The notes below the pieces were generated by a model, which was not told the origin of the DNA, did not search any database, and saw only the letters and a list, made by a program, of their open reading frames with translations. A DNA stretch of 64,000 nucleotides from the human T2T-CHM13v2.0 reference genome, Homo sapiens: NCBI RefSeq assembly GCF_009914755.1, contig NC_060938.1; one strand, given 5' to 3'. The first letter of the stretch is position 1, and every line of letters starts with the position of its first letter. Below, in pieces: positions 13,949 through 64,000 of the stretch. A program made the position numbers and the translations under genes.

Positions 13949-14278
<330 letters not shown>

Positions 14279-14439
14279 TTATTCCATAAACTATTTAAAG
14301 TCTAAGAATTTTCCCTTGGTTAATGAAACTTTTTATTTTAATTTCCTTTTATGAAATGAGACCACAGCTTAAAGCAGGCAAGATCTTGAAGACATCTTTA
14401 TGTCTTGGCCTAGAGAGGAAGTTCAGCACATTGGCCTGT

Positions 14440-14660
14440 GCCCAGTCTTGGAGGCAGATATCCATAGCTGGGTTCAAACCCTGCTTTGTTATCTACAAGC
14501 CGTGTGACCTCGACTTGTTCCTTAACATACATCGGTTGTCATCTATAAAGTGGACATAATAATAGTACTTCCCTCCCGTGATTGTGAGGATTAAATGAAA
14601 TGATGAATGTAAAATAGTACAGGGCACACAGTAAGTCTTCAGTGCACATACACAGTTGTT
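14440..14660. mobile_element. MIR SINE remnant
   Basis: ctgggttcaaaccctgc...gtgtgacct...catctataaagtgg...gattgtgaggattaaatga core. Confidence 0.6.
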
Positions 14661-15378
14661 TGTGGACAAATGTCTAATGGTTTAGATAGGCTAGATAATA
14701 GCACGTATTATGTGTGATCACCATCTGATACTGAAAGTTCAACTGTATGTTAAGAGTTTTCAAACCACTTTTTACACACAGTTGCTCATGTTGCACCACA
14801 GCTTTCTTCCAGGAAGGCCGGCCGGTGATTAGGTGCCTGTTTCCACTGAAGTGTAAATCTAAGCCAGAGGCTTGTCCAGGATAGGGTGGCCCTTCAGGGG
14901 CTGAGCACTGCAGTAGAAACTGGGTGTTGTAAGTTGTCGGTTCAGCTCTGTTTCCTACACCATGCTGTACCCAAGGTGGACATGGAAACTTTGGGCTTTT
15001 TGGGAAGTGTATGTGTAAGTATTAATGCCTAACCTGTGTTAAGGAAAATAATACATATTAAATTAAACAAAACGTCAGTCAGATGAGCTACAGTTTATTT
15101 TTCTGCTCTCTCCAGCCCTCTAGGTAGGCATTCAGTACATATTTAAGTGGATACAGTTTCCAAATGTTTTCTTAATTGTTTCTGCAGCTTTGCATAATTA
15201 TCAAAGCAGGAAATGCAGATCAGTCTTCTGCAGTGTTTTAGCTGGTATGTGTATGTAAATATTCTCTTTTATGTTTAGACCATCACAGCTGCCTGGAGCT
15301 CAAGTGTTAAACTATGACTGTTAAGCCTCTTTCAAATGATAGGAGTCAAAATATGTAATCCTTCTAGGTATTGTTTAA

Positions 15379-16742
15379 GTGTTGGTAGCAAAAAACTCAC
15401 TTTGTTTCCTCTGCTCTCACACTACAACAGTCAACACAGAAAACTGTGACCAAATATGTGTGGGGTTTTCCTCATACACTAAGCAGGGGACACCAGCTGG
15501 GTGTCCTCTAATTCACTTCAGTTCTTATGCTGTCTTCCTGGAGATGTATAAAGAAAGTGACTTTAAAGAAAGTGATGATATAAAGAAAGTGATGGTATAA
15601 AAAAAGTTATTTTTTATTCCAAAGCTGGCTTAGAGGAATAAGTACAGGCTTCCTGTCTTAAGGATACTGCTTTGCTCTTGGAGCAGAAAGTGGACACTTT
15701 TAAAAGGGGCCTAGCATGAATGGCACGCAGAGGAGGAAGCAAGCAGGTGGATACTTCCTTACTTTCTGCCTTCTCTACCAGGCAGTCCATTTGGTCTCTT
15801 CCTGGGCAGAACTAGGTTGTAAAGATGGCTGAAACTCTCCAGGTGGGAGAGTTTCTTAGTGGGCATACTTTGGGTTGTAAATTTACTGCTGTCCCTCGAG
15901 GCAGTCCCCTGGTGGGAGAAAGTTCTGCTCTGGAGCTTCTAAGCACATAGATGAACTTGCCCTGTAGGGAGTGTCTAGTAAAGGAAAGGTAAAAGGTTAT
16001 ATTGTATTTCTAAAGGTCTAAGTAGGAAGTGGGGAAGGAGTTGGGGAATAGTAGGGAAAAAATAATTGAAAAAATACATTTTTTTTAAAGAAATATGGGG
16101 GTAGCCTCAGATCCCATAGATTGAGGGCTCCATCCCACAAGACTGCCCCTCTCCCTCAGACACCAGTTGCAAGTCTGGGCCTCCAGAACTTCTGACTGAC
16201 CAGCTTCAAGTTGAGGTTCCCATGACCCTCTCTTTGGGCTTCATTTGCTAGAGCAGCTCGCTGAACTCAGGGAAACACTTAACATTTACTGCTTTATTAT
16301 AAAGGATACAGATGAAGAGATGCATAGAGCAAGGTATAGGGGAAGGGGCACAGAGCTTTCATGCCCTCTCTGGATGCACCACCACTGTCCAGCAGCCCGC
16401 AGGTGTTCAGCTGTCGGAAAGCTCCCTAAACCCTGTCCTTTTGGGTTTTTAATGGAGGCTTCATTACATAGGCATGGTTGATTACATCACTGGCCATTGC
16501 TGATCAGCTCAACCTTTAGCCCCTCCTATCCCTGGAGGATGGGGGGTTGTGCCAAAAGTCCCAATCTTCTAATCATGCCTTGGTCTTTATCGTGACCAGC
16601 CCCCATCCTGAAGTTGCCTAGGGTCTGCCAGCCATCAGTCTCATTAACATACAGAAAGACTTCACATTGGAGATCCCAAGGATTTTAGTAGTTGCATGCC
16701 AGGAAACAGGGATGAAGACCAAATACATATTTCATAGCATCA
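15379..16742 (-). mobile_element. MER21-family LTR interrupted by a nested ~550-bp LTR-like insert (~15545-16100)
   Basis: Right end is the reverse complement of the MER21 start (gaccaaatacatatttcatagcatca). MER21-like text breaks at cctggagat and resumes at agcctcagatccca. Confidence 0.65.
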
Positions 16743-17073
16743 AAGCTGCATTAAACACTTGTGATTTCAAGTAAAAAAAATCTAATTTCATATGACAAGT
16801 TGGTGGTTTATCTGAAATTTCTTCTGAAATGGGCCTTTTTAAACCTGTTTTTGCTTTTAGTACAAATCAAATAATTTTGGAAAGGAGAACTTCTGTCCAT
16901 CTACTCCATTAAAAATATGTTTTTAGTATTTAAAAAAAATTTCCCAAAGAAGAAGTATGTATGTGTGGGTATGAAATTGATCACTAGTATTTTCAGCTTT
17001 TCTTGTTAATTAGGCTTTCCAAGAGCAGAAAACTGTTTTCAAATATTGCAGCATTTCTGTTAAGATTATTTGA

Positions 17074-17310
<237 letters not shown>

Positions 17311-17918
17311 TGAGGTAGTTTACTTTTATTCTCTACACAGGAGAAGAATTGAAAATTGGTCCTCTTTGTAATGGAGAGATGTTTTATTCTGTGATTCTTT
17401 TTTTTTTTTTGGCGTGGCGGGGGCGGGGTGCGGAAAGAGCAGTACATTAGCATCGTCATTTGTAATCAAGTTGCCTTTGCCTTAATATCCAGTGCTAAGA
17501 GCTTGCCGATTCGTTCAGGAGCTCCATTGCAGACACAGACTGGCCTGTGATTTTTCTATCCTTTCTTTCAGGTTGTTGAACCAAGGTAGAAAATATTTGA
17601 TGTAGCACAGCCAGCAGAATTATGGGCATTTTAATTATTTAGAGAACTGTGAATTAATAATTAATTTTCCATTCAATGTTAACTTGAATTTCAAAGGAAA
17701 AAATACTCCAATTGAAGTATAATTTTACATCAAATATGGTTCCTGTTGTTTAATTACTAGTTCATTTTTTTCATAAGATGAGAACTTTTAAAAATTTAAA
17801 GCATATTTTCTAATTTAAAAGTATTTTTAACAGATTTTCATTTCCTTAAAAGCTGATTATCATTCCTTTTCTTCAACATGGTACATTCCGAGTTTTATTG
17901 TTTTCCTCTTATTTTTAG

Positions 17919-17967
17919 ATCTATCCTTCTGTGGAAAATGTGCGGACCAGTTTAGAAGGATATCCTG
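17919..17967 (+). CDS. TDP1: TDP1 exon (49 nt; ~exon 12) IYPSVENVRTSLEGYP(A)
   Basis: atttttag acceptor, ctg|gtaatt donor. In-frame translation. Confidence 0.96.
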
Positions 17968-19490
17968 GTAATTCTTGGGGAGACTGTCTTGATTGTGTTT
18001 TATGTATATTTCATGAATGTCCTGGTAAAGTTTTACTACTATTGCTTAGAAATTTGGAGATGGTTTTCACTTAACTATATAAGGATCATGAAAATAGGCA
18101 ATATGAAGCTCTGCATTCCGCAGATGATACCCTTCAGTTTGGGTGTGTTATTAATCCTTACAGAAACCCTCTGCACAATAGTTTTCATTTTTACCAGTAA
18201 GGTAACCAGCAGGTTGGTTGTCCAGACAAGATAGCCAAATAAAATCAGCTTCCCCTTACTCTTCAATGCGTTTTCAGAGCTTATCCAACATACCTTCCTC
18301 TCATCTCTGCATATCCTCCCTTCCTGTGTTTGAGGTACCATGTGGTCCTTTTAAATGCCTGCTATAGATAACATTTAAGGTCCGGAATTTTTAAAATTTT
18401 GCCTTTGGTATAACTTTGTTGATATGTCTATTCTGTCAAGGGTGTCATCTGCAAATGCCTAAGATTTTTTGTAGGCATCTGTCAACGCTGTCCCTTTCCC
18501 TTATACTCATACCAGGCACTAAACCTTTATTTAGAATTCAGCAGCCCCGCTAGTTAGTGTAATCAGGAGATGTTAACTGAAAACCCACATAGTGGTTGTC
18601 TCTGGAAAAAGCAAAGTCTAATTGGCATTTGTTGATGGCTGAAAGCAGAATGCACTGAATTAAACTAATTTAGTCCATTTATTGCTTATCAGGCTCAATA
18701 AGAAAAATCTGCCAGGAAAATTTCGCTAGCGTTTGGAGTGTATTAGCCCTTTTTTTTTTTTTTTTTTTTTTTAATGGCAAAACCAAAATTACTTCACCGA
18801 GACCCAGGGATACAGTGGTGGTTTTTCTTTGGTACTCTTTTTGTGCCTCTAATAGGCTAGATTCATTCAAAGTGTACTTTTAATGGGGGAACAACATGGT
18901 ATTTTTAACAAAGTTGTTTTATAACTGGCTTTGAAACTGAATGTTTTTAGTTATTTGAAGTTGAAGACAGGACATGCCCTATTTGATATGTCAGAGATGT
19001 TTGGATATAGATCTCTTTGGGTGTAGATCAGTGTGGAGAAGTTCCAGCATGTGTGTGGAAAGTCACTGATAATCCACTGTGGAGTTTTCTTCATTTTAAA
19101 AATGAGCAAGCATTGACTTCTAATTGTATTTCCACTTGGAACTTTCTTTATTCTCTTTGCAAGAATAAGGCTTTTAGAATTCCTTTTTTCAAACTGAACT
19201 GTTTACTGAACGTTTTGTTTTTTAGCCATTCTTTTCTGTTTGTCAGAATCTGCTCAGCCAGTACAAAGTCTGTTTGGAAATAGTGTGTAAAGGTGAAGTA
19301 GAAGGGGCACTGACATCTTGTCCTAGATTTTCCTCCCCAAGTCCCACGGTCTTGGGCAAAACAGAGGCTGTCCAGCTGTGTCTTATTTGCATAAGGAGGG
19401 TAGGATGGGCCAGGATTCTAACACTTCAGATCTGTGCAGGTATAGATGTTAAATTATCATCACCAAGTAATTCAATTATAATTTTTTGTT

Positions 19491-19915
19491 TTCAAAGTGT
19501 ACTTTTAATGGGGAACAACGTGGTATTTTTAACAAAGCTGTTTTATAACTGGCTTTGAAACTGAGTGGTTTTAGTTATTTGCAGTTGAAGCTTTTGCAGG
19601 AAAAAGCTCTATTCTGCTTTACTTGGTGCGTTCTCGTCCTCAATGAGGTAATTTACTTTTATTCTCGACACAGAAGAATTGTAAATAGTCCTTACATTCC
19701 TGATGGGAGAAATCTTTTTAATGTGTTCATAATTCTTGCTCTGAATGTTGAATGGGTTTCTAAAAAGTGATTAGCGAGTTGTCATTAGTTTTCAGTATGT
19801 TTGTGTTACATGAGCCTTATTTAAAGGCATCCCATGACTATACTTCGTAAAGTATATGATCATCACTTACTTTTGCTTATAAGTCTGGATGTTTATAAGA
19901 TTTGCATAAAGTTAA
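19491..19915 (+). repeat. Tripartite intragenic mosaic duplication (copies of 18866-18966, 17264-17351 and 21686-21922)
   Basis: Direct hand alignment: about 94%, 90% and 96% identity to the three source segments. Confidence 0.95.
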
Positions 19916-20048
19916 TACTGAAGGAAGGAAACCTCGTTAAGAGAACATATCTAGTGCAACTATAGACATTTTCTTTCAAATAACTATTCTATAAGATGAA
20001 GTAATAGAAGTAGTTTTTTTCCTGTTACCTTCTTGCTGTTTATTGTAG

Positions 20049-20186
<138 letters not shown>

Positions 20187-21548
20187 TAAGTAATTGGTTT
20201 AGACTGCTGCTATTGCTTCTTTAGGAATTAGAGTGTTATTTATGTCACTGGTTTGTTTTTTTTTTTAAAAGGAACTTTATGTAATATAGCTATATTCTTT
20301 CATCTACATATGTTAGTGATAGAAATAATTTAAAACAAGGTTTTGAATTTTTTTTGGAATAGGTTTTTAATACCAAAGAGGAAAATTTATTGCTGTGAGG
20401 TTTCTATTTAAATATTGGCATGCCAAGAAAGACAAATAGAAGATCATGTTGGGTAGTTTAGAATTTACATAAGCAGCATTTTAGTTCATTTTTCCAAAAT
20501 ATAAAGTATCATTATTCTGTCTGTACCGTCACACATGCAGCTGCAAGCTTGTTGAGGGCAGATTCTTTGCTGCCGTTTCCTGAGGATACAGGACAGTATC
20601 TGGCGTGTTGTCAGAGTTCAGTAAATGCTGAGTGGACAAGTGAAGGGAATGTCCTTCACCCTCCTCCAGCCACAGCAGTTGCACAGCCTGCATATGCAAG
20701 GCCAGTCTGTTTCATGCTTGTCTCAACAGGTGTTTGCTGTGCTGGTTAGCCAGAAATGAAAGCAGAATTACTTTGAATTATAGCTTTCAACTGTAAGTCA
20801 GTGTGTAATCCTAGAGCTTTTCTTTAGTGCTTTCTTGAGAGGTTTTTCCTTACAGAGGACATTTCTTTAAATTGAACTCATTTAAATATTATATTATTAA
20901 ATTCACTTGAATGAAGACAGTGATGGTACCTACCTAAACCTGATTCTGTTTTCACAGACCATCTGTTAATCTGGAGGGACCATCCTCTTATATTCATAAG
21001 TAAAGATTGTTGCTTCATGATATAGGTTCCCATAGAACCATAGTCTGCAATATTGGAAACTTAGAAACCAAACTCAGATTTGTGAATGTCAGCATTTGAC
21101 TAAAGTATTTCTGCCCTCGCTTTTCAACATTCATTTTTTTCATATACTGTTTGTATTTTGCCTTTTTTGTATTTTGTTTCATTCAACAAGCTTTTGCTGA
21201 GCCTCTACTCATAACACACCGTGGAAGCATGATTCTTCCCTTTAAGGAGCTCACAGTTCAGGCAGGAGACATATACACACATGCTGTTAAAAGCACAACA
21301 GAAATAATATGTATGCATGTATGTATGTTCATGGCAAAAATGGAAAGGCTATATGCTGAAAGGTTGCAGTGCTTCTTGTGAAAAGTGGGAAGTTTATAAT
21401 TCTAAAATGGGCATGCGTTACTTGAATGGAGTTTCATAAAATCTCACAGGTCACAGAGTCGTGTAGCCACTGTTGATTTTTAGATAATAGGCTCTTTGTT
21501 TTCATGCAGTTTCCTAATATTAGGATTATGATCAATTTTATTTCATAA

Positions 21549-21686
<138 letters not shown>

Positions 21687-22479
21687 TAAATAGTCCTTAC
21701 ATTCCTGATGGGAGAAATCTTTTTAATGTGTTCATAATTCTTGCTCTGAATGTTGAATGGGTTTCTAAAAAGTGATTAGTGAGTTGTCATTAGTTTTCAG
21801 TATGTTTGTGTTACATGAGCCTTATTTAAAGGCATCCCATGACTAATCCCTTTGTAAAGTATATGATCATCACCTACTTTTGCTTATAAGTCTAGATGTT
21901 TATCAGATTTGCATAAAGTTAACATTTACTTCTGTTATTTAATACCTCAATAGGGGTTATGCAAATTGACATTTGGGGTAAGTACAGAAGAATAATGAAA
22001 TGTTAAAATTAATATTTTTTTCTTAATTAGTTTCTCCTTAGGTAATTGAAATCTGAAGCAATCAAATCTCTTATGTGTCCTTTTCTAAAACATCTTTAAG
22101 GTGTAATTCACGTACCATAAAATCTGCCCATTAAGTCTCTACTGTTTAATGGTTTAGGATAGTCACAGAATTATGTAACCATTACCATAATCTAAATTTA
22201 GAATATTTTCATCACCCTATAAGAAACCACCTACCTGTTGGCATTTTTGTGTCTATTTTTATAGGAAGATAAATTGCTATGCCCTTTGAAAACTAGAACT
22301 TTAGTTCCTGACTCCCAGGCTGAACCCAACGATTAGGCATCTCTTTATGATTCAGTAACATAATTAATGTCAATAGCAACTAATTAAAGTATCACAGAGT
22401 AGAATTATTTCTTTAAGAGAGGAACAGCACTCATGAACAAACTTTTAAACAAAAGAGCCACTTACATCTTCTTGGCGAG

Positions 22480-22600
22480 AGAGAAAGATTTATTTTAAGG
22501 AATTGGCTCATGCAATTGTAGGGGCTGGCAAGTCCAAAATCCATAGGGCAAACCAGCAGCTTGGAGATTTAGTAAGACTTGATGTTGCAATCTTGAGTCT
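22480..22600 (-). mobile_element. MLT2 LTR fragment
   Basis: agatttattttaaggaattggctcatgcaattgtaggggctggcaagtccaaaatc motif. Confidence 0.6.
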
Positions 22601-25600
22601 CTTTCTACTTTATTGGAAAAGTTTAATTTAATGTCTGTTTGGGTGTTGTTTTCCCTCAAAGTGTAATAAAAAGGTGATGTACTTCACAGAAATTACGTAT
22701 TATTGATTCTGTTTCAAGGGCATTAAGGGAAGTGGAGATTAAAGTAACCCTGTGAGTAATCTTTTTCTAAAGGCAAAGTTTTTGTAGTTCAGTTCAATGG
22801 CAGTGTGTGCTTGACTGTGGGAACACAAAGAGCCAGGAAGCACGAGCCCTGCCATGCATGTGATGTTGTATCCTAGTTGTTTACCTGTGTGAGGACCATA
22901 GTGGAAGCACTGTTAGAAATGTATTGCCTTGCTGGGGCAGAGGCAGGATCAAATGAGAGATCAGCTAAACTAAGTAAAGAGGTGCTATTGTAAGTAGGCC
23001 TAGAAGTAAGCCTGAGAGAAAACCCAGACGGATTAGAAGGAACTAGTGAGGACAAAGGCCATGGAGGTGGGAAAATACACAGGATTTTCAGGGAAAATCT
23101 GAGTGATTCCATGAGGCTATGTAAAAGGAAACACAGGTTCAGATACCTTTGGCATGTATTTTCTAAAGTTAAGTCAAAAAACATCCACTGTCAGTTTACT
23201 CATTTAATATTTGTCAGTTTTGTACTGTGAATATCTGCTTTAATGTCGAATGGCTGTTACTAAATTAAGCAAATTATAGTTATTTGAAGTTTATTGTAAG
23301 AATTTGAAATTTGTCATTATGGCTTTGTAGCTTCTAGTTTTATTCTGTAATAACTGGACTGAAAGCTGTATCTACTTGCCTAAATGTTTAAAGATGAATA
23401 GCAACAACATTCATTCAGTAATTTCAATATGCCAGACTGTTCTGGGTGAGCAATCATGTGTATTTACTTATTTAATTCTCACAACAGCTGCATGAGGACC
23501 AGGAGGCACAGAGTGATTAATAAGCTGCCTACTATCATGCAGTAATAAGTGATGGAACCCAGATAGGAGCACACCTCTCCTCTACTGTCTGATGCCCCCT
23601 CTTAATCAACATAGAGTTTTAGTGTGCCTGTTTTCTACAAAGACTAGTTAATTCCAAAGAAATTGTGTCAGGCTTTACTTTGATTGCTGTATAAAAGAGG
23701 AAAAGGACATTGAGCATTCCAATATGATTAAAGGATTTCTAAGAAACATAACTTAAATAACAACTTAGATACATAGAACCCACTCTCTCAGCCCTTCCAT
23801 AATAAAGGAAAGTATAGTTTCCAAATATAAATGGCATCTACCAGTAAGGAGCTCCCTTGATTAGGTTTGGACATTTTGTTTTGTCTGTCACTTTTTCTGA
23901 ACCTGTCAGAAAGAATGTTCCCAAACCGAACTCATGTAGATGGAGATTTCTTTTCCCAGAATTCTTCTTTGCCCTTGTGGCACCTGTCTCTTATTACCAA
24001 GCTTAAAGCCTGAATGTCTCTTTCACTATTCCCTCAAATGTTTGGCAAACATTTGCTGAGGTCCTCCTGTGGATGCCAGGCACTCAGGATAAAACAGAAG
24101 ATTTAGATAGTGTCTTTTAGATGCTCACAGTCTCTGATGGAGGAGCCAGACACAGAAATAATTACAATAGGAAGAGACCAATTATGTGCTTGAGGTGGGC
24201 ACATGGATGCTTTGGAAATAGCTGTCAAAGCCTATTTATCTTTGAAATGTTTCAAAAGTTTCCTCTTCCAGTCCTTGCAATTACCAGGTCAGAAACTTAT
24301 CCTCTGGACTTCTGAAAGGGTTTCCTATCTGTTGTGTCATCACGTGGATGTTCTTCATAAGCCACTCATCCTGGTTGCCCATGCCCCTTCACCTTTCTGA
24401 AACATAGAGTTTCCTCATTGTTCCATGTTCAGAATTCCCCACGTCCTGTAGGCTAAAGTACAGATTCCTCAGTTTGGAAGTCATGCCCCAGCCACACCAT
24501 TTTCACCATTCTTACCCATTAATCCCCAAGAGGAGCCTTGAGAAGAAGCCAGGCTAGCCTCCTTTGCCCCTGAAGTCATCCAGCCAACAGCCCATGTAGT
24601 TTCTTCTCCTGATCCTTTCATCCCTTTTCTCTCTTTCTTCAGTTGCTGTTCATCTTTTAAGAGTTGTGTTCAGGTCCCATCTCCGCCTGGAGCCTCTTTC
24701 AGCCTCTGCTGGTCCCTCCCTGTCCAGATCCTTAGATCCGTGTGCCACCAGTGGAGCTCACAGCTCCTACCTCACTATTTTGTCTCTCAAGCATGAGCTT
24801 TAACATTGTCAGACAGTACTAGATGAGATGGTCATGTCTACTATTGAACAAGTCTTGCCTTGGACAAGTTTCTTAACCTCTCTGAGCCTCAGACTTCTCA
24901 ACTGCACAGCAACTATGAAGGTTTAAGGTGCCAACTATGGTGACCTGTGGGAGTAAGAAGAAAGGGGCAGGGGAGAGAATTGACCTGCATTAAGTAGCCA
25001 CCATGTGGCAGACACTTCTGGTGCTTTACCTACATAGTAGTGTCTTTCAGTCCCCACAAGAGCTGTGAGGTGGCGTTATCCCCTCCCTCCACTCAATGAG
25101 GAATAAGGCGGCAGAGTTGAGGCAGTTCTACCCATTACTCAGCAAATATGTATTGCCCGCTGTGGCAAGAATAGAGTAATTAAGATGAGGTTCTCACAGA
25201 ATTTACATTGGCATGAAAGAGATTTACCAAAGAATTCATTGTATACATATTAGTTAATTGCACTTGTAATGCTTTTTGACTATTCTACATAGGTGGGTTT
25301 TTAGCCAAAACATCACTTCTGGAGCCTGGTGGCTTCCATAATGCCCTAGATTCCTGCATTGTCAGCGTTCTTTCCCTATTCACTGTGGTTGCTTGTGTAA
25401 TTATCTGGCTTCCCCTCTAGACTCTGTGAGGCCAAGTCCATGCCTGTCTTGTTCAGCATACCCTGGTGACTGGCCAGGTGCCTGACATGTGGAGGCTGAT
25501 GAAGCCTAGGATTGAAGTGGTAACCATGAAAGCACTGCCTAGACTGCATAATGGAACATGGGAGGGCCCTCAAAGGTGATTCCTGAGTTTGGGGTATGTA

Positions 25601-26572
25601 GATGGGGATTGTCACTGATATCAGTATAGAAGTCAGGGAATGGAACTGGCCTACCACAGTGGGATGATGGTGAATTTGATTGAAGATTGATTTATCATGG
25701 TGGAGACTTCAGGTGGAATTGTTTGTTGGAGATGAACTTAAAAGTTTGGTGTACATATAGTATGTTTTGGAGTTTTGGTTAGTACTGATTGTTAACACCG
25801 TAATCCTTTGCGACTTCCAGAGGAGAATATAGCGGATCAACGCCTGGGCATTGAGGAACATACAAGAAATACATATCAGGTGGGCTTTTCATGCCTACCA
25901 GGTGTTCCATTGCCAAACAAATGAATTGGATTCAAGCCATCCCTCCTGGGTTGAAGAGCAACTGGTCACACATTCTCCATTACATAATTTTTCTTCTACC
26001 TAAGAAAAATGTTTTATATATATATTCTATTTTGGGTATCAGATTTAACCATTTATCCAGCACATAACTACTGAGCACCTACTATGCACCACACACTTTT
26101 CTAGGTGCTAAGAATGCAATAAACAATAAAACATCTTGACTTTTATGTTCTGGTGCTGGGAATTACACAAAAAGCAAAGAAGTGTGTTTATGTATGCAAA
26201 TGGTGGTAAGTGCTATAGAGAAAAAATAGAATGATAATTTAGGTGCACAATCCTTTATTCTAAATTCTTGGTACCAGATGTAGTTCAGTATTTGGATTTT
26301 AGAAAGATAATATGGTACCTATACTGTCTGTTAATATCCCTAGTGGTATCTGGACCAACACTTCATAATACAACATTTTGGAAGCAAAGATCACAGGTAG
26401 CCCCATGTCATCTTAGTTCAACTTTTGTTGCCCAATGAGTTAAGATCAAGTTTTGCTATCAAATGAAATGAGTTAAAAGCTTTATTTCAAATTTGGTTTA
26501 GGTTATTGTTTTTAAATTTTCAGAGCTAACATGTAGTTCTTAACCAGCAGTTCCAGGCACAGTTCCAAGCAC

Positions 26573-39110: not shown

Positions 39111-41829
39111 TGATATGGGCTGGCTGTATCCCCACCCAAATCTCATCTTGAATTGTAGCACCCATAATCCCCACATGTTGTGGAAGGGACCTGGTGGGAG
39201 GTAATTCAGTCATGGGGGTGGGTTTTCCTGTGCTGTTCTCATGATAGTGAATATGTCTCATGAGATCTGATGGTTTTTATAAAGAGCAGTTTCTCTGCAC
39301 ACACACTCCTGCCTGCCACCATGTAAGGCATGCCTTTGCTCCTCCTTCGCCTGCTGCCATGATTGTGAAGCATCCCCAGCCATGTGGAACTGTGAGTCCA
39401 TTAAACCTCCTTTCCTTTATAAATTACCCAGTCTTGGGTATGTCTTTATTAGCAGTGAGAGAACAGACTGTTATAGTAAATTGCTACCGGTAGAGTGGGG
39501 TGCTGTTATAAGGATACCCAAAAATGTGGAAGTGACTTTGGAACTGGGTAACAGGCAGAGGTTGGAACAGTTTGGAGGGCTCAGAAGAAGACAGGAAAAT
39601 GTGGGAAAGTGGGAACTTCCTAGAGACTTGGAGGGCTCAGAAGACAGGAAGATGTGGGAAAGTTTGGAACTTCCTAAAAACTTGTTGAATGGCTTTGACC
39701 AAAATGCTGACAGTGATATGGACAATGAAGTCTAGGCTAACATGTTCCCAGATGGAGATGAGAAACTTGTTGGGAACTGGGGCATAGGGGACTCTTCCTA
39801 TGTTTTATCAAGGAGACTGGTGGCATTTTGCCCCTGCCATAGAGATCTGTGGAACTTTAAACTTGAGAAAGATAATATAGGGTATCTGGCAGAAGAAATT
39901 TCTAAGCAGCAAAGTGTTTGAGGTGATTTTGGGTGCTCTTAAAGGCATACAGTTTTATTCATTCATAGAGATACTCTTTGGAGTTGGAACTTATGTTTAA
40001 AAGGGAAGCAGAGCATAAAAGTTGGAAAATCTGCAACCTGACAATGCAATAGAAAAGAAAAACCCATGTTCTGAGGACTACAGAAATTTGCATAAGTAAT
40101 GAGGAGCCAAATGTTAATTGCCAAGACAATGGGGAAAATGTCTGCAGGGCATGTCAGAAGTCTTCACGGCAGACCCTCCCATCACATGCCTGGAAGCCTA
40201 GGAGGAAATGGCTTTGTGGGCCAGGCCCAGGCCCTTGCCGCTTTGTGCAGTCTTGGGACTTGGTGCCCTGCATCCCAGGCATGGCTAAAAGGTGCCAACA
40301 TACAGCTCAGGCCATTGCTTCAGAGGGTGCAAGCCCCAAGCCTTGGTGGCTTACACATTGTGTTGGGCCTGTAGGTACACATAAGTTAAGAATTGAGGTT
40401 TGGGAACCTCTACTTACATTTCAAAGGATGTATGGAAAAGCCTGGATGTCCAGGCAAAAGTTTGCTGCAGGGATGGAGCCTCATGTCATTAAGTGTTTAT
40501 GGCTTTTCCAGGCACATGGTGCAAGCTGTCAGTGAATCTACAATTCTGCAATCTTGAAGGATTCTGGCCCTTCTCACAGCTCCAGTAGGCAGTGCCCTAG
40601 TGGGGACTCTGTGTGGGGCCTCCGACCCCATAATTCCCTTCCACACTGCCATAGCAAAGGTTCTCCATGAGGGCCTCGTCCCTGGAGCAAACTTTTGCCT
40701 GGACATCCAGGCGTTTCTATACATCCTCTGAAATGTAGGTAGAGTTTCCCAAACCTCAATTCTTAACTTCTGTGTACCCGCAAGGCCATTGCTTCAGAGG
40801 TGTGCTGCAGGGGTGGAGCCCTCATGGAGAACCTCTGCTAGGGCAGTGCAGAAGAGAAATATGGGGTAGGAACCCCCACACAGAGTCCCTACTGGGGCAC
40901 TGCCTAGTGGAGCTGTGAGAAGAGGGCCACCATCCTCCAGACCCCAAAATGGTAGATCCACTGACAGCTTGCATGGTGGGCCTGGAAAAGCTGCAGACAC
41001 TCAATGCCGGCCCCTGAAAGCAGCCAAGAAGGGGGGCTATGCCCTGCAAAGCTACAGGGGCAGAGCCTGTCCAAGGTCATGGAAGCCTACCTCTTGGATC
41101 AGCGTGACCTGGATGTGAGACATGGAGTCAAAGGAGATCATTTCGGAGCTTTAAGATTTGACTGCCCTGACAGATTTTGGACTTGCATGGGGCCTGTAGC
41201 CCCTTTGTTTTGGCCAATTTCTCCCATTTAGAATGGCTGTGTTTACCCAATGCCTGTACCCACATTGTATTTAGGAAGTAACTGACTTGCTGTTGATTTT
41301 ACAGGGTCATAGGCAGAAGGGACGTACTGTGTCTCAGATGAGTCTTCAGACTGTAGACTTTTGAATTAATGCCGAAATGAGTTAAGACTTTGGGAGGCTG
41401 TTGGGAAGGCATGATTGGTTTTGAAATGTGAGAACATGAGATTTGGGAGGGGTAAGGGGTAGAATGATATGGTTTGGCTCTGTGTCCTCACCCAAATGTC
41501 ATCTTGAACTGTAGCTTCCATAATTCCCATGTGTCATGGGAGGGACCTGGTGGGAGGTAATTGAATCATGGGAGTGGGTTTTCCCAAGCAGTTCTCTTGA
41601 TAGTGAATAGGTCTCACGAGATCTGATGGTTTTATAAAGGGCAGTTCCCTGCACACGCTCTCTTGCCTGCCGCCATGTAAGATGTGCCTTTGCTCCTCCT
41701 TTGCCTTCTGCTATGATCGTGAGGCCTCCCCCGCCATGTGCAACTGTGAGCCCATTAAACATCCTTTCCTTTGTAAATTATCCAGCCTCGGGTATGTCTT
41801 TATTAGCAGCATGAGAACAGACTGATACA
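39111..41829 (+). mobile_element. Full-length THE1 MaLR element: 5' LTR 39111-39475, internal 39476-41464, 3' LTR 41465-41829
   Basis: Two direct THE1 LTRs (tgatatgg...ccacccaaatctcatcttgaa), purine tract before the 3' LTR, 5-bp TSD agtag (39106-39110 / 41830-41834). Confidence 0.92.
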
Positions 41830-61285: not shown

Positions 61286-61582
<297 letters not shown>

Positions 61583-63094: not shown

Positions 63095-63366
63095 CCCACT
63101 AACCTTCTCAGCTTTCATGGTGAACCAAGCCTCCTCTGTCGCACTAACCTTCCCAGCTTTCATGGTGAACCAAGCCTCCTCTGTCCCGCTAACCATTCTC
63201 AGCTTTCATGGTGAACCAAGCCTCCTCTGTCCCGCTAACCTTCTCAGCTTTCATGGTGAACCAAGCCTCCTCTGTCCCGCTAACCATTCTCAGCTTTCAT
63301 GGTGAACCAAGCCTCCTCTGTCCCACTAACCTTCTCAGCTTTCATAGTAAACCAAGCCTTCTCTGT
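63095..63366. repeat. Minisatellite, six units of 45/45/46/45/46/45 bp
   Basis: Unit ccc(a/g)ctaacc(a)ttctcagctttcatggtgaaccaagcctcctctgt counted directly. Confidence 0.95.
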
Positions 63367-64000
63367 CTGATGGGCCCTTTCTTAGATGGTGTTAACACAT
63401 CTGACAAAGTTAATCCTATCTCATGCTGTCCAGTGTGCCATCCTGCCTCTTGCTGGTAACTTTGTATTTCTCTAATCAATAGTTTGATGCTAAGTTTCAG
63501 GAGGCATTCTTTTTCTCCTTTCTAAAGTGTGGAAATCCCCTATGCCTTTCTGTTGAGTCCTCTAAATTTCTTGTGTATTCATGCATATTTCGTTTTCGGT
63601 AGCAAGGCTATCTAGATTTTTATCAGAATTTAAAGCAGTCTGTCAGGATCTTACCTGCCACCAAAAAAAAAAAAACCCCAGGAAAACCCTGCTTTAAAAT
63701 CAGGCCATGTTTCTGTGCCAACTCCACAACTTACTAAATAGACTTGGGCATTTAGTTACTTTCTCTAGGTTTTAGTGTGTCTGTCTACACAGTGAGGAAC
63801 TGTGAGTATCTACCTTATAGGGTTATTGAAAAGATTAACTGAGATTATCTATAAAGTACTTATCTTCCCTCTTTTGGCTTTGTGCTACTTTTGTCTTTTC
63901 TCCCCTTATCTGTTCTTCAGGTTCCTTTTCTTCCTTTTTTTTTTTTTTTAACCCAAGTTCTCCTCCTCCCTGTTGGAAGTGGGGACTGACTGACTAGGCT

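What the first reader, a model, noticed from the sequence alone, without database searches (positions are those of the whole stretch)
19491..19915. Three-piece self-templated mosaic in TDP1 intron 12, built from non-adjacent parts of the same gene
Seen: 19491-19590 copies 18866-18966 (5 substitutions + 1 indel). 19597-19681 copies 17264-17351, the exon-11 3' end, donor and intron start (7 substitutions + a 3-nt deletion). 19681-19915 copies 21686-21922, the start of intron 14, with the first ~94 nt identical. All pieces are in direct orientation but out of genomic order (upstream, further upstream, then downstream). Sources 1 and 2 share CAGGA at the first junction (18968-18972 vs 17264-17268). 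The second junction aligns gaaaat with gtaaat. Inference: a single serial template-switch event (FoSTeS/MMBIR-like or polymerase-theta templated insertion) fixed in the primate lineage. It is not a transposon: no poly-A, and I found no TSD.
Basis: partly seen in the sequence, partly recalled or inferred. Interest (0 to 1): 0.85.

Follow-up and report, generated by a model that had tools for sequence, protein, structure and literature searches.

The report
Three-piece copied patch in TDP1 intron
A 425-base stretch inside an intron of the human DNA-repair gene TDP1 is a patchwork copied from three nearby parts of the same gene, an old and probably harmless scar of error-prone DNA repair or replication.

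Summary
Window 19491-19915 (TDP1 intron 12) consists of copies of 18866-18966, 17264-17351 and 21686-21922. All three are in direct orientation but out of genomic order, and 6 unmatched bases separate pieces 1 and 2. In the whole CHM13 genome the stretch matches only itself and those three sources. None of these stretches is masked as a repeat. There is no target-site duplication and no poly-A.

Pieces 1, 2 and the last 75 nt of piece 3 are evenly diverged, about 7%, which fits one old event. The first 160 nt of piece 3 differ from their source at one CpG only (P about 1e-4 to 1e-3). I read that as later gene conversion with intron 14.

Best reading: one multi-template templated insertion of the MMBIR/FoSTeS kind, a known class. 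A serious rival is copying from TDP1's own RNA, because piece 3 starts exactly at the first base of intron 14 (post-hoc P 0.005-0.02).

The primate phylogeny and fixation could not be tested here. This is a new member of a known kind, of modest interest.

The parts
19491..19590 (+). Mosaic piece 1: copy of 18866-18966 (intron 12, 625 nt upstream)
   Evidence: 5 substitutions + 1-nt indel, 94% over 101 columns; whole-genome E 3.3e-34
19591..19596 (+). 6-nt filler (CTTTTG) between pieces 1 and 2, matching neither source
   Evidence: Global alignments of both sources break here. With its flanks it forms a 10-mer (19588-19597) that recurs once at 21188-21197.
19597..19681 (+). Mosaic piece 2: copy of 17264-17351 (last 29 nt of exon 11, donor, first 59 nt of intron 11). 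The donor copy reads GTGCGT where the source reads GTGAGT.
   Evidence: 7 substitutions + 3-nt deletion; exon limits
19681..19915 (+). Mosaic piece 3: copy of 21686-21922, the first 237 nt of intron 14. The G at 19681 is shared with piece 2.
   Evidence: 7 substitutions + 2-nt indel, 96.2%; whole-genome E 2.4e-104
19681..19840 (+). Near-identical sub-tract of piece 3 (1 difference in 160 nt, a CpG/TpG site at 19775 vs 21780): inferred later gene-conversion tract shared with 21686-21845
   Evidence: 1/160 against 18/260 elsewhere: Fisher p = 0.0014, Poisson 1.9e-4; binomial 1.3e-4, and 0.024 even at half the rate
18866..18966 (+). Source 1 (intron 12). CAGGA at 18968-18972, just past its end, also starts source 2.
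17264..17351 (+). Source 2 (exon 11 3' end, donor, intron 11 start)
21686..21922 (+). Source 3: begins at the first base of intron 14
21188..21197 (+). Candidate fourth micro-template in intron 13 for the filler plus its flanks (a weak lead only)
   Evidence: The 10-mer occurs 2 times in the window, one being the mosaic itself. Expected 0.28 from 100 shuffles; 3 of 100 shuffles had 2 or more matches.

Best explanation
One old copy-and-paste event put a 425-nt patch into TDP1 intron 12. A DNA end at about 19490/19916, from a broken fork or a double-strand break, was extended by a low-processivity polymerase. The polymerase switched template several times among single-stranded DNA within about 2.3 kb: the intron 14 start, the exon 11/intron 11 boundary, then intron 12. 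There may also have been a 6-nt detour. Synthesis then rejoined the original strand. This is a multi-template templated insertion of the MMBIR/FoSTeS/serial-slippage kind.

The junction homeologies fit synthesis of the minus strand, that is copying from right to left on the window.

Later, the first roughly 160 nt of piece 3 and the start of intron 14, 2 kb away, were homogenised by non-allelic gene conversion.

The patch now looks like a neutral intronic passenger. No annotated exon overlaps it, and both copied splice donors are weakened.

Shown: the anatomy, the uniqueness in the genome, the absence of retroelement marks, and the uneven divergence. Inferred: a single event, a DNA template, the direction of synthesis, the gene conversion and the age.
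For: - Three co-oriented, out-of-order copies abut at one site.
- The sources are intact and are the only other matches in the genome: 4 places in total, the mosaic and its 3 sources.
- Among 13 non-masked self-hits in the window, these are the only dispersed unique-sequence duplications. The other 10 are tandem arrays, one inverted pair at 40.4-40.8 kb and three hits of 35-55 nt.
- Two further independent insertions landing within 10 nt of the first by chance: 8.6e-5 with intron 12 as the target.
- Divergence of piece 1 (5/100), piece 2 (7/85) and the piece 3 tail (6/75) is homogeneous, chi-square p = 0.63.
- All templates lie within 2.3 kb of the insertion site.
- Junction 1: the sources share CAGGA. 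Junction 2: a shared G, then 11 of 13 matches with one gap. Each anchored score of 6.5 is reached by 0.65% of about 20,000 random position pairs. The left sides show no similarity.
- A filler of a few bases, microhomology and several templates are the stated hallmarks of MMBIR (passages of PMC2621351). [quoted passage not shown]
- No target-site duplication, no poly-A.
- Ts:Tv of 11:8 is compatible with ordinary drift (p = 0.47 against 2:1).
Against: - Piece 3 begins exactly at the first base of intron 14. On a DNA-template model this is a coincidence, with post-hoc P of 0.005 (three left ends against four intron starts) to 0.019 (six breakpoints against eight exon boundaries).
- The CAGGA microhomology is not a clean junction, because 6 unmatched bases replace one base there.
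- Junction 2 has only 1 nt of perfect microhomology. Its homeology helps only if synthesis ran right to left.
- The two outer junctions cannot be judged without the empty site.
- All three pieces are in direct orientation and in the sense of transcription. MMBIR allows this but does not predict it.
- No outgroup was available, so a single event, the age and the gene conversion all rest on one genome.
Confidence: 0.5

Rival explanations
1. An RNA-templated patch. A reverse-transcribing enzyme (LINE-1 ORF2p acting without its endonuclease, or a repair polymerase such as Pol zeta or Pol theta) copied TDP1's own nuclear RNAs at a break in intron 12.

On this model cDNA synthesis started 237 nt inside excised or 5'-cleaved intron 14 and ran off its 5' end at 21686. 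The cDNA end then re-annealed to the similar 13 nt in an unspliced exon 11/intron 11 transcript and copied 85 nt. It jumped again to intron 12 RNA, and the product was joined into the break.
For: - Piece 3 starts at the exact first base of intron 14. That base is a natural end of template for an RNA but not for DNA. The chance of this on the DNA model is 0.005-0.019.
- All pieces are co-oriented and in the sense of the TDP1 transcript, as jumps from RNA to RNA require.
- The homeology at junction 2 lies on the side expected for copying 3' to 5' along sense RNA.
- The lack of a target-site duplication and poly-A, the few non-templated bases and the microhomology match the description of class 2 templated sequence insertions. 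For those, RNA origin is supported by reverse-transcriptase inhibitors, and sizes are 73-414 bp (PMC5110952, parts 1-2 read).
- Transcript RNA can template break repair in human cells (abstract of PMC12065846).
- Tripartite chimeras from double template jumps of a LINE reverse transcriptase are described (search listing and start of abstract of PMC2104539).
Against: - The boundary coincidence was noticed after the fact and is a single observation.
- Class 2 insertions are defined as templated from distant regions, not from the same gene.
- The other two take-off points (17264, 18866) are not known RNA ends.
- No search I ran found a natural multi-piece insertion copied from a gene's own pre-mRNA or intron RNA. 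The search for lariat + templated insertion + reverse transcriptase gave 1 paper, on bacterial enzymes.
- Local multi-template DNA events are documented as common germline variants, so the prior favours DNA.
- No RNA family or unusual fold marks the intron 14 start.
Confidence: 0.3
2. A stepwise origin: two or three independent small duplications or insertions that happened to land next to each other at different times, for example pieces 1 and 2 first and piece 3 later.
For: - Overall, piece 3 (7/235) is less diverged than pieces 1 and 2 together (12/185). The difference is not significant (Fisher p = 0.10).
- The first 160 nt of piece 3 look young.
Against: - The tail of piece 3 (6/75) is as diverged as pieces 1 and 2. 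It is contiguous and in register with the young-looking part. So piece 3 as a whole is old and only part of it was renewed.
- Chance adjacency of independent insertions is about 1e-4 or less.
- No other such duplication exists in the window.
Confidence: 0.07
3. An assembly artefact of T2T-CHM13, or an interspersed repeat or retrocopy that RepeatMasker missed.
For: None found.
Against: - The copies differ from their sources by 4-9% with indels. A mis-join of reads would give identity.
- Only 4 places in the genome match.
- No masked repeat of 100 nt or more lies between 14251 and 26567.
- No target-site duplication or poly-A, and the exon 11/intron 11 boundary is unspliced in the copy.
Confidence: 0.02

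Closest known systems
Multi-template templated insertions attributed to MMBIR/FoSTeS (MMB-TIs; Hastings et al. 2009, PMC2621351; Osia et al. 2021, PMC8421209)
   Same: Several discontinuous nearby templates are copied into one site, the sources are left intact, and the junctions carry micro- or homeology and a few extra bases. Germline examples with up to five templates are reported (passages).
   Different: The germline events in that paper were called from short reads with a search threshold of 25 bp or more. Here the pieces are 100, 85 and 235 nt, all direct, the event is old (about 7% diverged), and one piece starts exactly at an intron's first base. A replicative origin is inferred, not shown.
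Class 2 templated sequence insertions (Onozawa and Aplan, PMC5110952)
   Same: No target-site duplication, no poly-A, microhomology and non-templated bases at the junctions, a size within 73-414 bp per piece, and transcribed or intronic templates.
   Different: Those are single patches templated from distant loci. This one is three patches from within 2.3 kb of the same gene.
Chimeric retrocopies made by LINE reverse-transcriptase template jumps (U6/L1 chimeras; tripartite pseudogene, PMC2104539, listing only)
   Same: Several RNA-derived pieces are fused head to tail in one orientation.
   Different: As I recall, those carry a poly-A and target-site duplications and use abundant small RNAs or mRNAs. 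Here none of these marks is present, and the pieces are unspliced pre-mRNA or intron sequence.
Non-allelic (interlocus) gene conversion between nearby paralogous segments
   Same: A tract of near-identity (160 nt, 1 difference) sits inside a duplicate that is otherwise about 7-8% diverged, between direct repeats 2 kb apart.
   Different: It applies only to the second step, and its direction and date cannot be told from one genome.

Membership tests
MMBIR/FoSTeS-type multi-template templated insertion | Insertion built from two or more discontinuous segments copied from elsewhere, with the sources left intact | tested here: met
   Three segments plus a 6-nt filler; all three sources are present at their own places
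MMBIR/FoSTeS-type multi-template templated insertion | Microhomology of about 2-5 bp at the junctions (criterion from PMC2621351 abstract) | tested here: inconclusive
   Junction 1: the sources share 5 nt (CAGGA), but the mosaic has 6 unmatched bases there. Junction 2: 1 nt perfect, then 11 of 13 homeology on one side (anchored P 0.0065 each). The outer junctions cannot be read without the empty site.
MMBIR/FoSTeS-type multi-template templated insertion | Templates lie near the insertion point | tested here: met
   Start-to-start spacings are 624, 2333 and 2005 nt
MMBIR/FoSTeS-type multi-template templated insertion | Made by DNA-templated replicative synthesis in one event | not testable with these tools
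   Needs the empty site in outgroup primates or experiments. Homogeneous divergence (p = 0.63) and adjacency are only consistent with one event.
Class 2 templated sequence insertion (RNA-derived break patch) | No target-site duplication, no poly-A, and end-joining features at the junctions | tested here: met
   No shared flank word of 5 nt or more and no A-run of 6 or more; the only run is TTTTTT at 19482-19487 in the left flank. 6-nt filler.
Class 2 templated sequence insertion (RNA-derived break patch) | [quoted passage not shown] | tested here: not met
   All templates lie within 2.3 kb in the same gene
Class 2 templated sequence insertion (RNA-derived break patch) | Template was RNA | not testable with these tools
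   Indirect only: sense orientation, and piece 3 starts at the first base of intron 14
LINE-1-mediated retrocopy / class 1 templated insertion | Target-site duplication of 5 bp or more, a poly-A tail, and a TTTT/A target | tested here: not met
   None of the three at the right-hand, 3' junction. The exon 11/intron 11 boundary is unspliced.
Interspersed repeat / transposon | Many dispersed copies in the genome, with terminal repeats or a target-site duplication | tested here: not met
   4 places in the genome, all in TDP1. 0 inverted repeats in 16500-23000. Not masked.
Polymerase-theta end joining with templated insertion | Short inserts, typically a few to tens of nt, copied from sequence close to the break (criterion recalled, not from a call) | tested here: not met
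   The pieces are 100, 85 and 235 nt, copied from 0.6-2.3 kb away. Only the 6-nt filler is of that scale.
Non-allelic gene conversion (second step) | A tract much more similar than the rest of the same duplicate | tested here: met
   1/160 against 6/75 within piece 3 (Fisher p = 0.0048) and against 18/260 overall (p = 0.0014)

The most novel reading that the evidence does not exclude
The patch was reverse-transcribed from TDP1's own nuclear RNAs. The enzyme ran off the 5' end of excised (lariat or debranched) intron 14, jumped by 13-nt homeology to an unspliced exon 11/intron 11 transcript and then to intron 12 RNA, and the cDNA sealed a break in intron 12. That would make it a natural, fixed germline example of break repair templated in cis by intron and pre-mRNA. 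It would also suggest a searchable signature, namely piece ends at intron first bases, for how often RNA templates scar genomes.
Probability: 0.3. Interest if true: 0.6.

Novelty: new member of a known kind. Interest (0 to 1): 0.3.

Why it matters
In itself this is a neutral scar in an intron. It is a clean, fully resolved, old example of a three-template insertion, in a gene that happens to repair DNA ends.

Its value is as a worked case:
- It shows that such patches can be fixed and then partly re-homogenised with their source.
- One breakpoint sits exactly on an intron's first base. That raises a testable question: are some local 'template-switch' patches in genes copied from nascent or intronic RNA rather than from DNA?

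The patch also placed two weakened copies of real splice donors inside intron 12, together with an AG-flanked 26-nt exon-like unit at 19600-19625. No RefSeq transcript uses them, but they could matter for cryptic splicing if mutated.

Tried and rejected
1. An ancient homology between the intron 11 start and the intron 14 start, which would have made pieces 2 and 3 a single duplicate. BLAST extended the piece 2 alignment to 19737/17406 at 79.6%. The extension is at chance level: local score 11.5 against a shuffle mean of 11.6, reached by 250 of 500 shuffles and by 108 of 245 control windows. Only the 13 nt anchored at the junction stand out. Rejected.

2. A lariat branch read-through, with the intron 14 5' end joined to a branch point at about 17350. 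It would need a non-A branch point 59 nt into intron 11 and a back-splice-like topology with no acceptor nearby (reading). Rejected as contrived. Run-off at the intron's 5' end is kept as the RNA rival.

3. A tandem duplication of 18866-19490 followed by replacement. No homology exists between 18967-19490 and 19591-20115. Rejected.

4. A structured or known RNA as the reason for the identical 160 nt. There were 0 Rfam matches at E up to 1 in 16800-22600, and fold z-scores were -0.97 and -0.78. Rejected.

5. The 6-nt filler copied from 21188-21197. The 10-mer recurs there, but 0.28 matches are expected in the window. Kept only as a weak lead.

6. Error-prone synthesis as the source of all differences. 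The Ts:Tv of 11:8 is ordinary. At three differences the mosaic reads CG where the source reads TG or CA, so a later change in the source is possible. This cannot be settled without outgroups, and it remains a caveat on the age. Raised point-mutation frequency at MMBIR junctions is noted in passages of PMC4352052.

7. Literature on this locus. The search for 'TDP1' with 'intron 12' gave 1 paper, on Arabidopsis and irrelevant. I found no description of this patch in that search. Other wordings were not tried.

I opened no supplementary file. The supplementary lists of germline events of PMC8421209 might hold comparable cases.

Full report
**1. The observation**

I read 19300-20250 and the three proposed sources. 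I also ran a repeat search on 16500-23000, a sensitive BLAST of 19200-20300 against the whole window and global alignments with 10-nt overhangs.

| Piece | Mosaic | Source | Differences |
|---|---|---|---|
| 1 | 19491-19590 | 18866-18966 | 5 substitutions, 1-nt indel |
| 2 | 19597-19681 | 17264-17351 | 7 substitutions, 3-nt deletion |
| 3 | 19681-19915 | 21686-21922 | 7 substitutions, 2-nt indel; first 94 nt identical |

All three are direct repeats. The repeat search found 0 inverted repeats in the region. E-values are 4.5e-31, 4.7e-25 and 5.8e-87 in the window.

By the exon table of NM_018319.4, the mosaic and source 1 lie in intron 12. Source 2 is the last 29 nt of exon 11, the donor and 59 nt of intron 11. 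Source 3 starts at 21686, the first base of intron 14.

**2. What it is not**

- Not a repeat family. A search of the whole CHM13 genome with 19400-20000 found 4 places: the query itself and the three sources, all in TDP1.
- Not masked. No repeat of 100 nt or more is masked between 14251 and 26567.
- Not a retroelement insertion. The flanks share no word of 5 nt or more, and the mosaic holds no A- or T-run of 6 or more. The only such run is TTTTTT at 19482-19487 in the left flank. The exon 11/intron 11 boundary is unspliced in the copy.
- Not an assembly error. The 4-9% divergence with indels rules out a mis-join.
- Not a known or structured RNA. There are no Rfam matches at E up to 1 in 16800-22600. 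Neither the intron 14 start nor the mosaic folds better than shuffles (z = -0.97 and -0.78).

**3. One event or several**

A self-comparison of the window gave 13 hits outside masked repeats. Three are these pairs. The other ten are tandem arrays at 63.1, 44.0 and 48.5 kb, one inverted pair at 40.4-40.8 kb and three hits of 35-55 nt. So the only dispersed unique-sequence duplications in 64 kb all abut at one site. If they were independent, that would have a chance of about 1e-4 or less.

Divergence supports one age:
- Substitutions are 5/100, 7/85 and 6/75 for piece 1, piece 2 and the last 75 nt of piece 3. These are homogeneous (chi-square p = 0.63).
- Pooled, the JC distance is 7.3% (CI 4.3-11.6%).
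- The spectrum of 11 transitions to 8 transversions is ordinary.

I therefore take one event as very likely.

**4. A second step**

The first 160 nt of piece 3 (19681-19840) differ from intron 14 at a single site, CG against TG at 19775/21780. The next 75 nt carry 6 substitutions and the indel.

- 1/160 against 18/260 gives Fisher p = 0.0014.
- P(1 or fewer) is 1.3e-4 to 1.9e-4 at the pooled rate. It is still 0.024 if the intron 14 copy had not changed at all.

Both parts are contiguous and in register in both copies. So the simplest account is a later non-allelic gene conversion of about 160 nt between the two direct repeats 2 kb apart. Its left limit is where the homology starts. The direction and date cannot be told from one genome.

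**5. The junctions**

*Junction 1.* Source 1 continues with one base and then CAGGA (18968-18972), and source 2 starts with CAGGA (17264-17268). The mosaic, however, has 6 bases there (19591-19596) that match neither source. With its flanks, the filler forms a 10-mer that recurs once, at 21188-21197 in intron 13. Because 0.28 matches are expected in the window, this is only a weak lead to a fourth micro-template.

*Junction 2.* Sources 2 and 3 share the G. To its right they share 11 of 13 positions with one gap, and the mosaic follows source 3 at every discriminating position.

An anchored alignment test gave a score of 6.5 on the right side of both junctions. That score is reached by 0.65% of about 20,000 random position pairs from 15-24 kb. 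The left sides scored 1.0 and 0.0, which is no similarity. A free local alignment of the two continuations is at chance level.

The one-sided homeology at junction 2 fits a nascent minus strand. Its 3' end, just copied from the intron 14 start, would re-anneal imperfectly at 17351-17363 and carry on leftwards. So synthesis probably ran from right to left on the window. This is an inference.

**6. Mechanism**

The anatomy is that of a multi-template templated insertion:
- several discontinuous nearby templates, with intact sources;
- micro- or homeology at the junctions;
- a few extra bases.

These are the hallmarks stated for MMBIR/FoSTeS, namely complexity, 2-5 bp microhomology and low-processivity synthesis with repeated switches (PMC2621351, abstract and passages). 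[quoted passage not shown] I put this reading at about 0.5.

The main rival, at about 0.3, is an RNA template. Piece 3 starts exactly at the first base of intron 14. With DNA templates this is a coincidence. The post-hoc probability is 0.005 if only the three left ends and four intron starts are counted. It is 0.019 for six breakpoints and eight exon boundaries in 5 kb, allowing 2 positions of ambiguity.

With RNA templates that base is the physical end of the template, whether the intron is excised or cleaved at its 5' splice site. A reverse-transcribing enzyme must stop or jump there. The following observations also fit:
- co-orientation of all pieces with the transcript;
- the right-to-left direction of copying;
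- the absence of a target-site duplication and poly-A;
- the non-templated bases.

These match the description of class 2 templated sequence insertions, for which an RNA origin is supported experimentally (PMC5110952, parts 1-2 of 4 read). Transcript RNA can template break repair in human cells (PMC12065846, abstract).

Against the RNA reading:
- Class 2 insertions are defined by distant templates.
- The other take-off points are not RNA ends.
- The coincidence was noticed after the fact.
- I found no precedent for a cis, multi-piece, intron-derived patch. The search gave 1 paper, on bacterial enzymes.

**7. Age**

A JC distance of 7.3% between copies in one genome corresponds, by recalled figures, to somewhat more than the human-macaque divergence and less than the human-marmoset divergence. 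That is roughly 25-45 million years. Two caveats apply. Error-prone synthesis at the time of the event would inflate the estimate (PMC4352052, passages). Gene conversion would deflate it. 'Fixed in the primate lineage' is plausible but untested here.

**8. Function**

None is apparent. No RefSeq transcript, of the 14 listed (three exon tables read) or in the merged exon list supplied with the finding, has an exon between 17967 and 20119.

The two copied donors are weakened. One reads GTGCGT where the source reads GTGAGT. The other has lost the exonic AG in front of GTAAAT.

The filler and one substitution created AG-ending pyrimidine stretches in front of the exon 11-derived 26 nt (19600-19625). 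A cryptic exon is therefore conceivable, but nothing shows it.

**9. Verdict**

It is a single templated mosaic and not a transposon, but the template type is unresolved, a later conversion step must be added, and the phylogeny is untested.
- It is a new member of a known kind, of modest interest. The intron-boundary breakpoint is the one feature worth following up.

Noticed in passing
window 19600-19625, with 19591-19599 and 19626-19631: The filler plus the start of piece 2 make a pyrimidine stretch ending in CAG. It is followed by 26 nt derived from exon 11 and a donor-like GTGCGT. This is an exon-like unit inside intron 12 that no RefSeq transcript uses.
   Followed up: partly
window 19520, 19629, 19667, 19775, 19846: At 5 of the 19 substitutions the mosaic copy has a CpG where the source has none, and never the reverse. 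Three are CG against TG or CA pairs. The asymmetry is unexplained. Outgroups are needed to tell which copy changed.
   Followed up: no
window 20075-20119 vs 21534-21578 (and 20010-20119 vs 21472-21578): The stretches just upstream of exons 13 and 14 resemble each other and both end at the first base of the exon. Identity is 71% over 45 nt, 16 of the first 17 bases match, and the BLAST E-value over 112 columns is 0.029. This may be only pyrimidine-tract composition.
   Followed up: no
window 14251-26567: A 12.3-kb stretch covering exons 11-14 has no masked repeat of 100 nt or more. Only 10,741 of the 64,000 bases in the window are masked in such stretches, which seems low for human intronic DNA.
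   Followed up: no
window 63095-63367: Tandem array of a 45-nt unit: 6 copies at 94% matches, also readable as a 91-nt period, in the intron after the exon at 61307-61415.
   Followed up: partly
window 40374-40485 vs 40666-40778: An inverted repeat pair of about 113 nt at 90% identity, not masked, next to masked repeats starting at 40781.
   Followed up: no
window 17397-17440: A T-run of about 14 nt is followed directly by a G-rich stretch with several G-runs, about 50 nt beyond the end of source 2 in intron 11. It could form non-B DNA near one of the templates.
   Followed up: no
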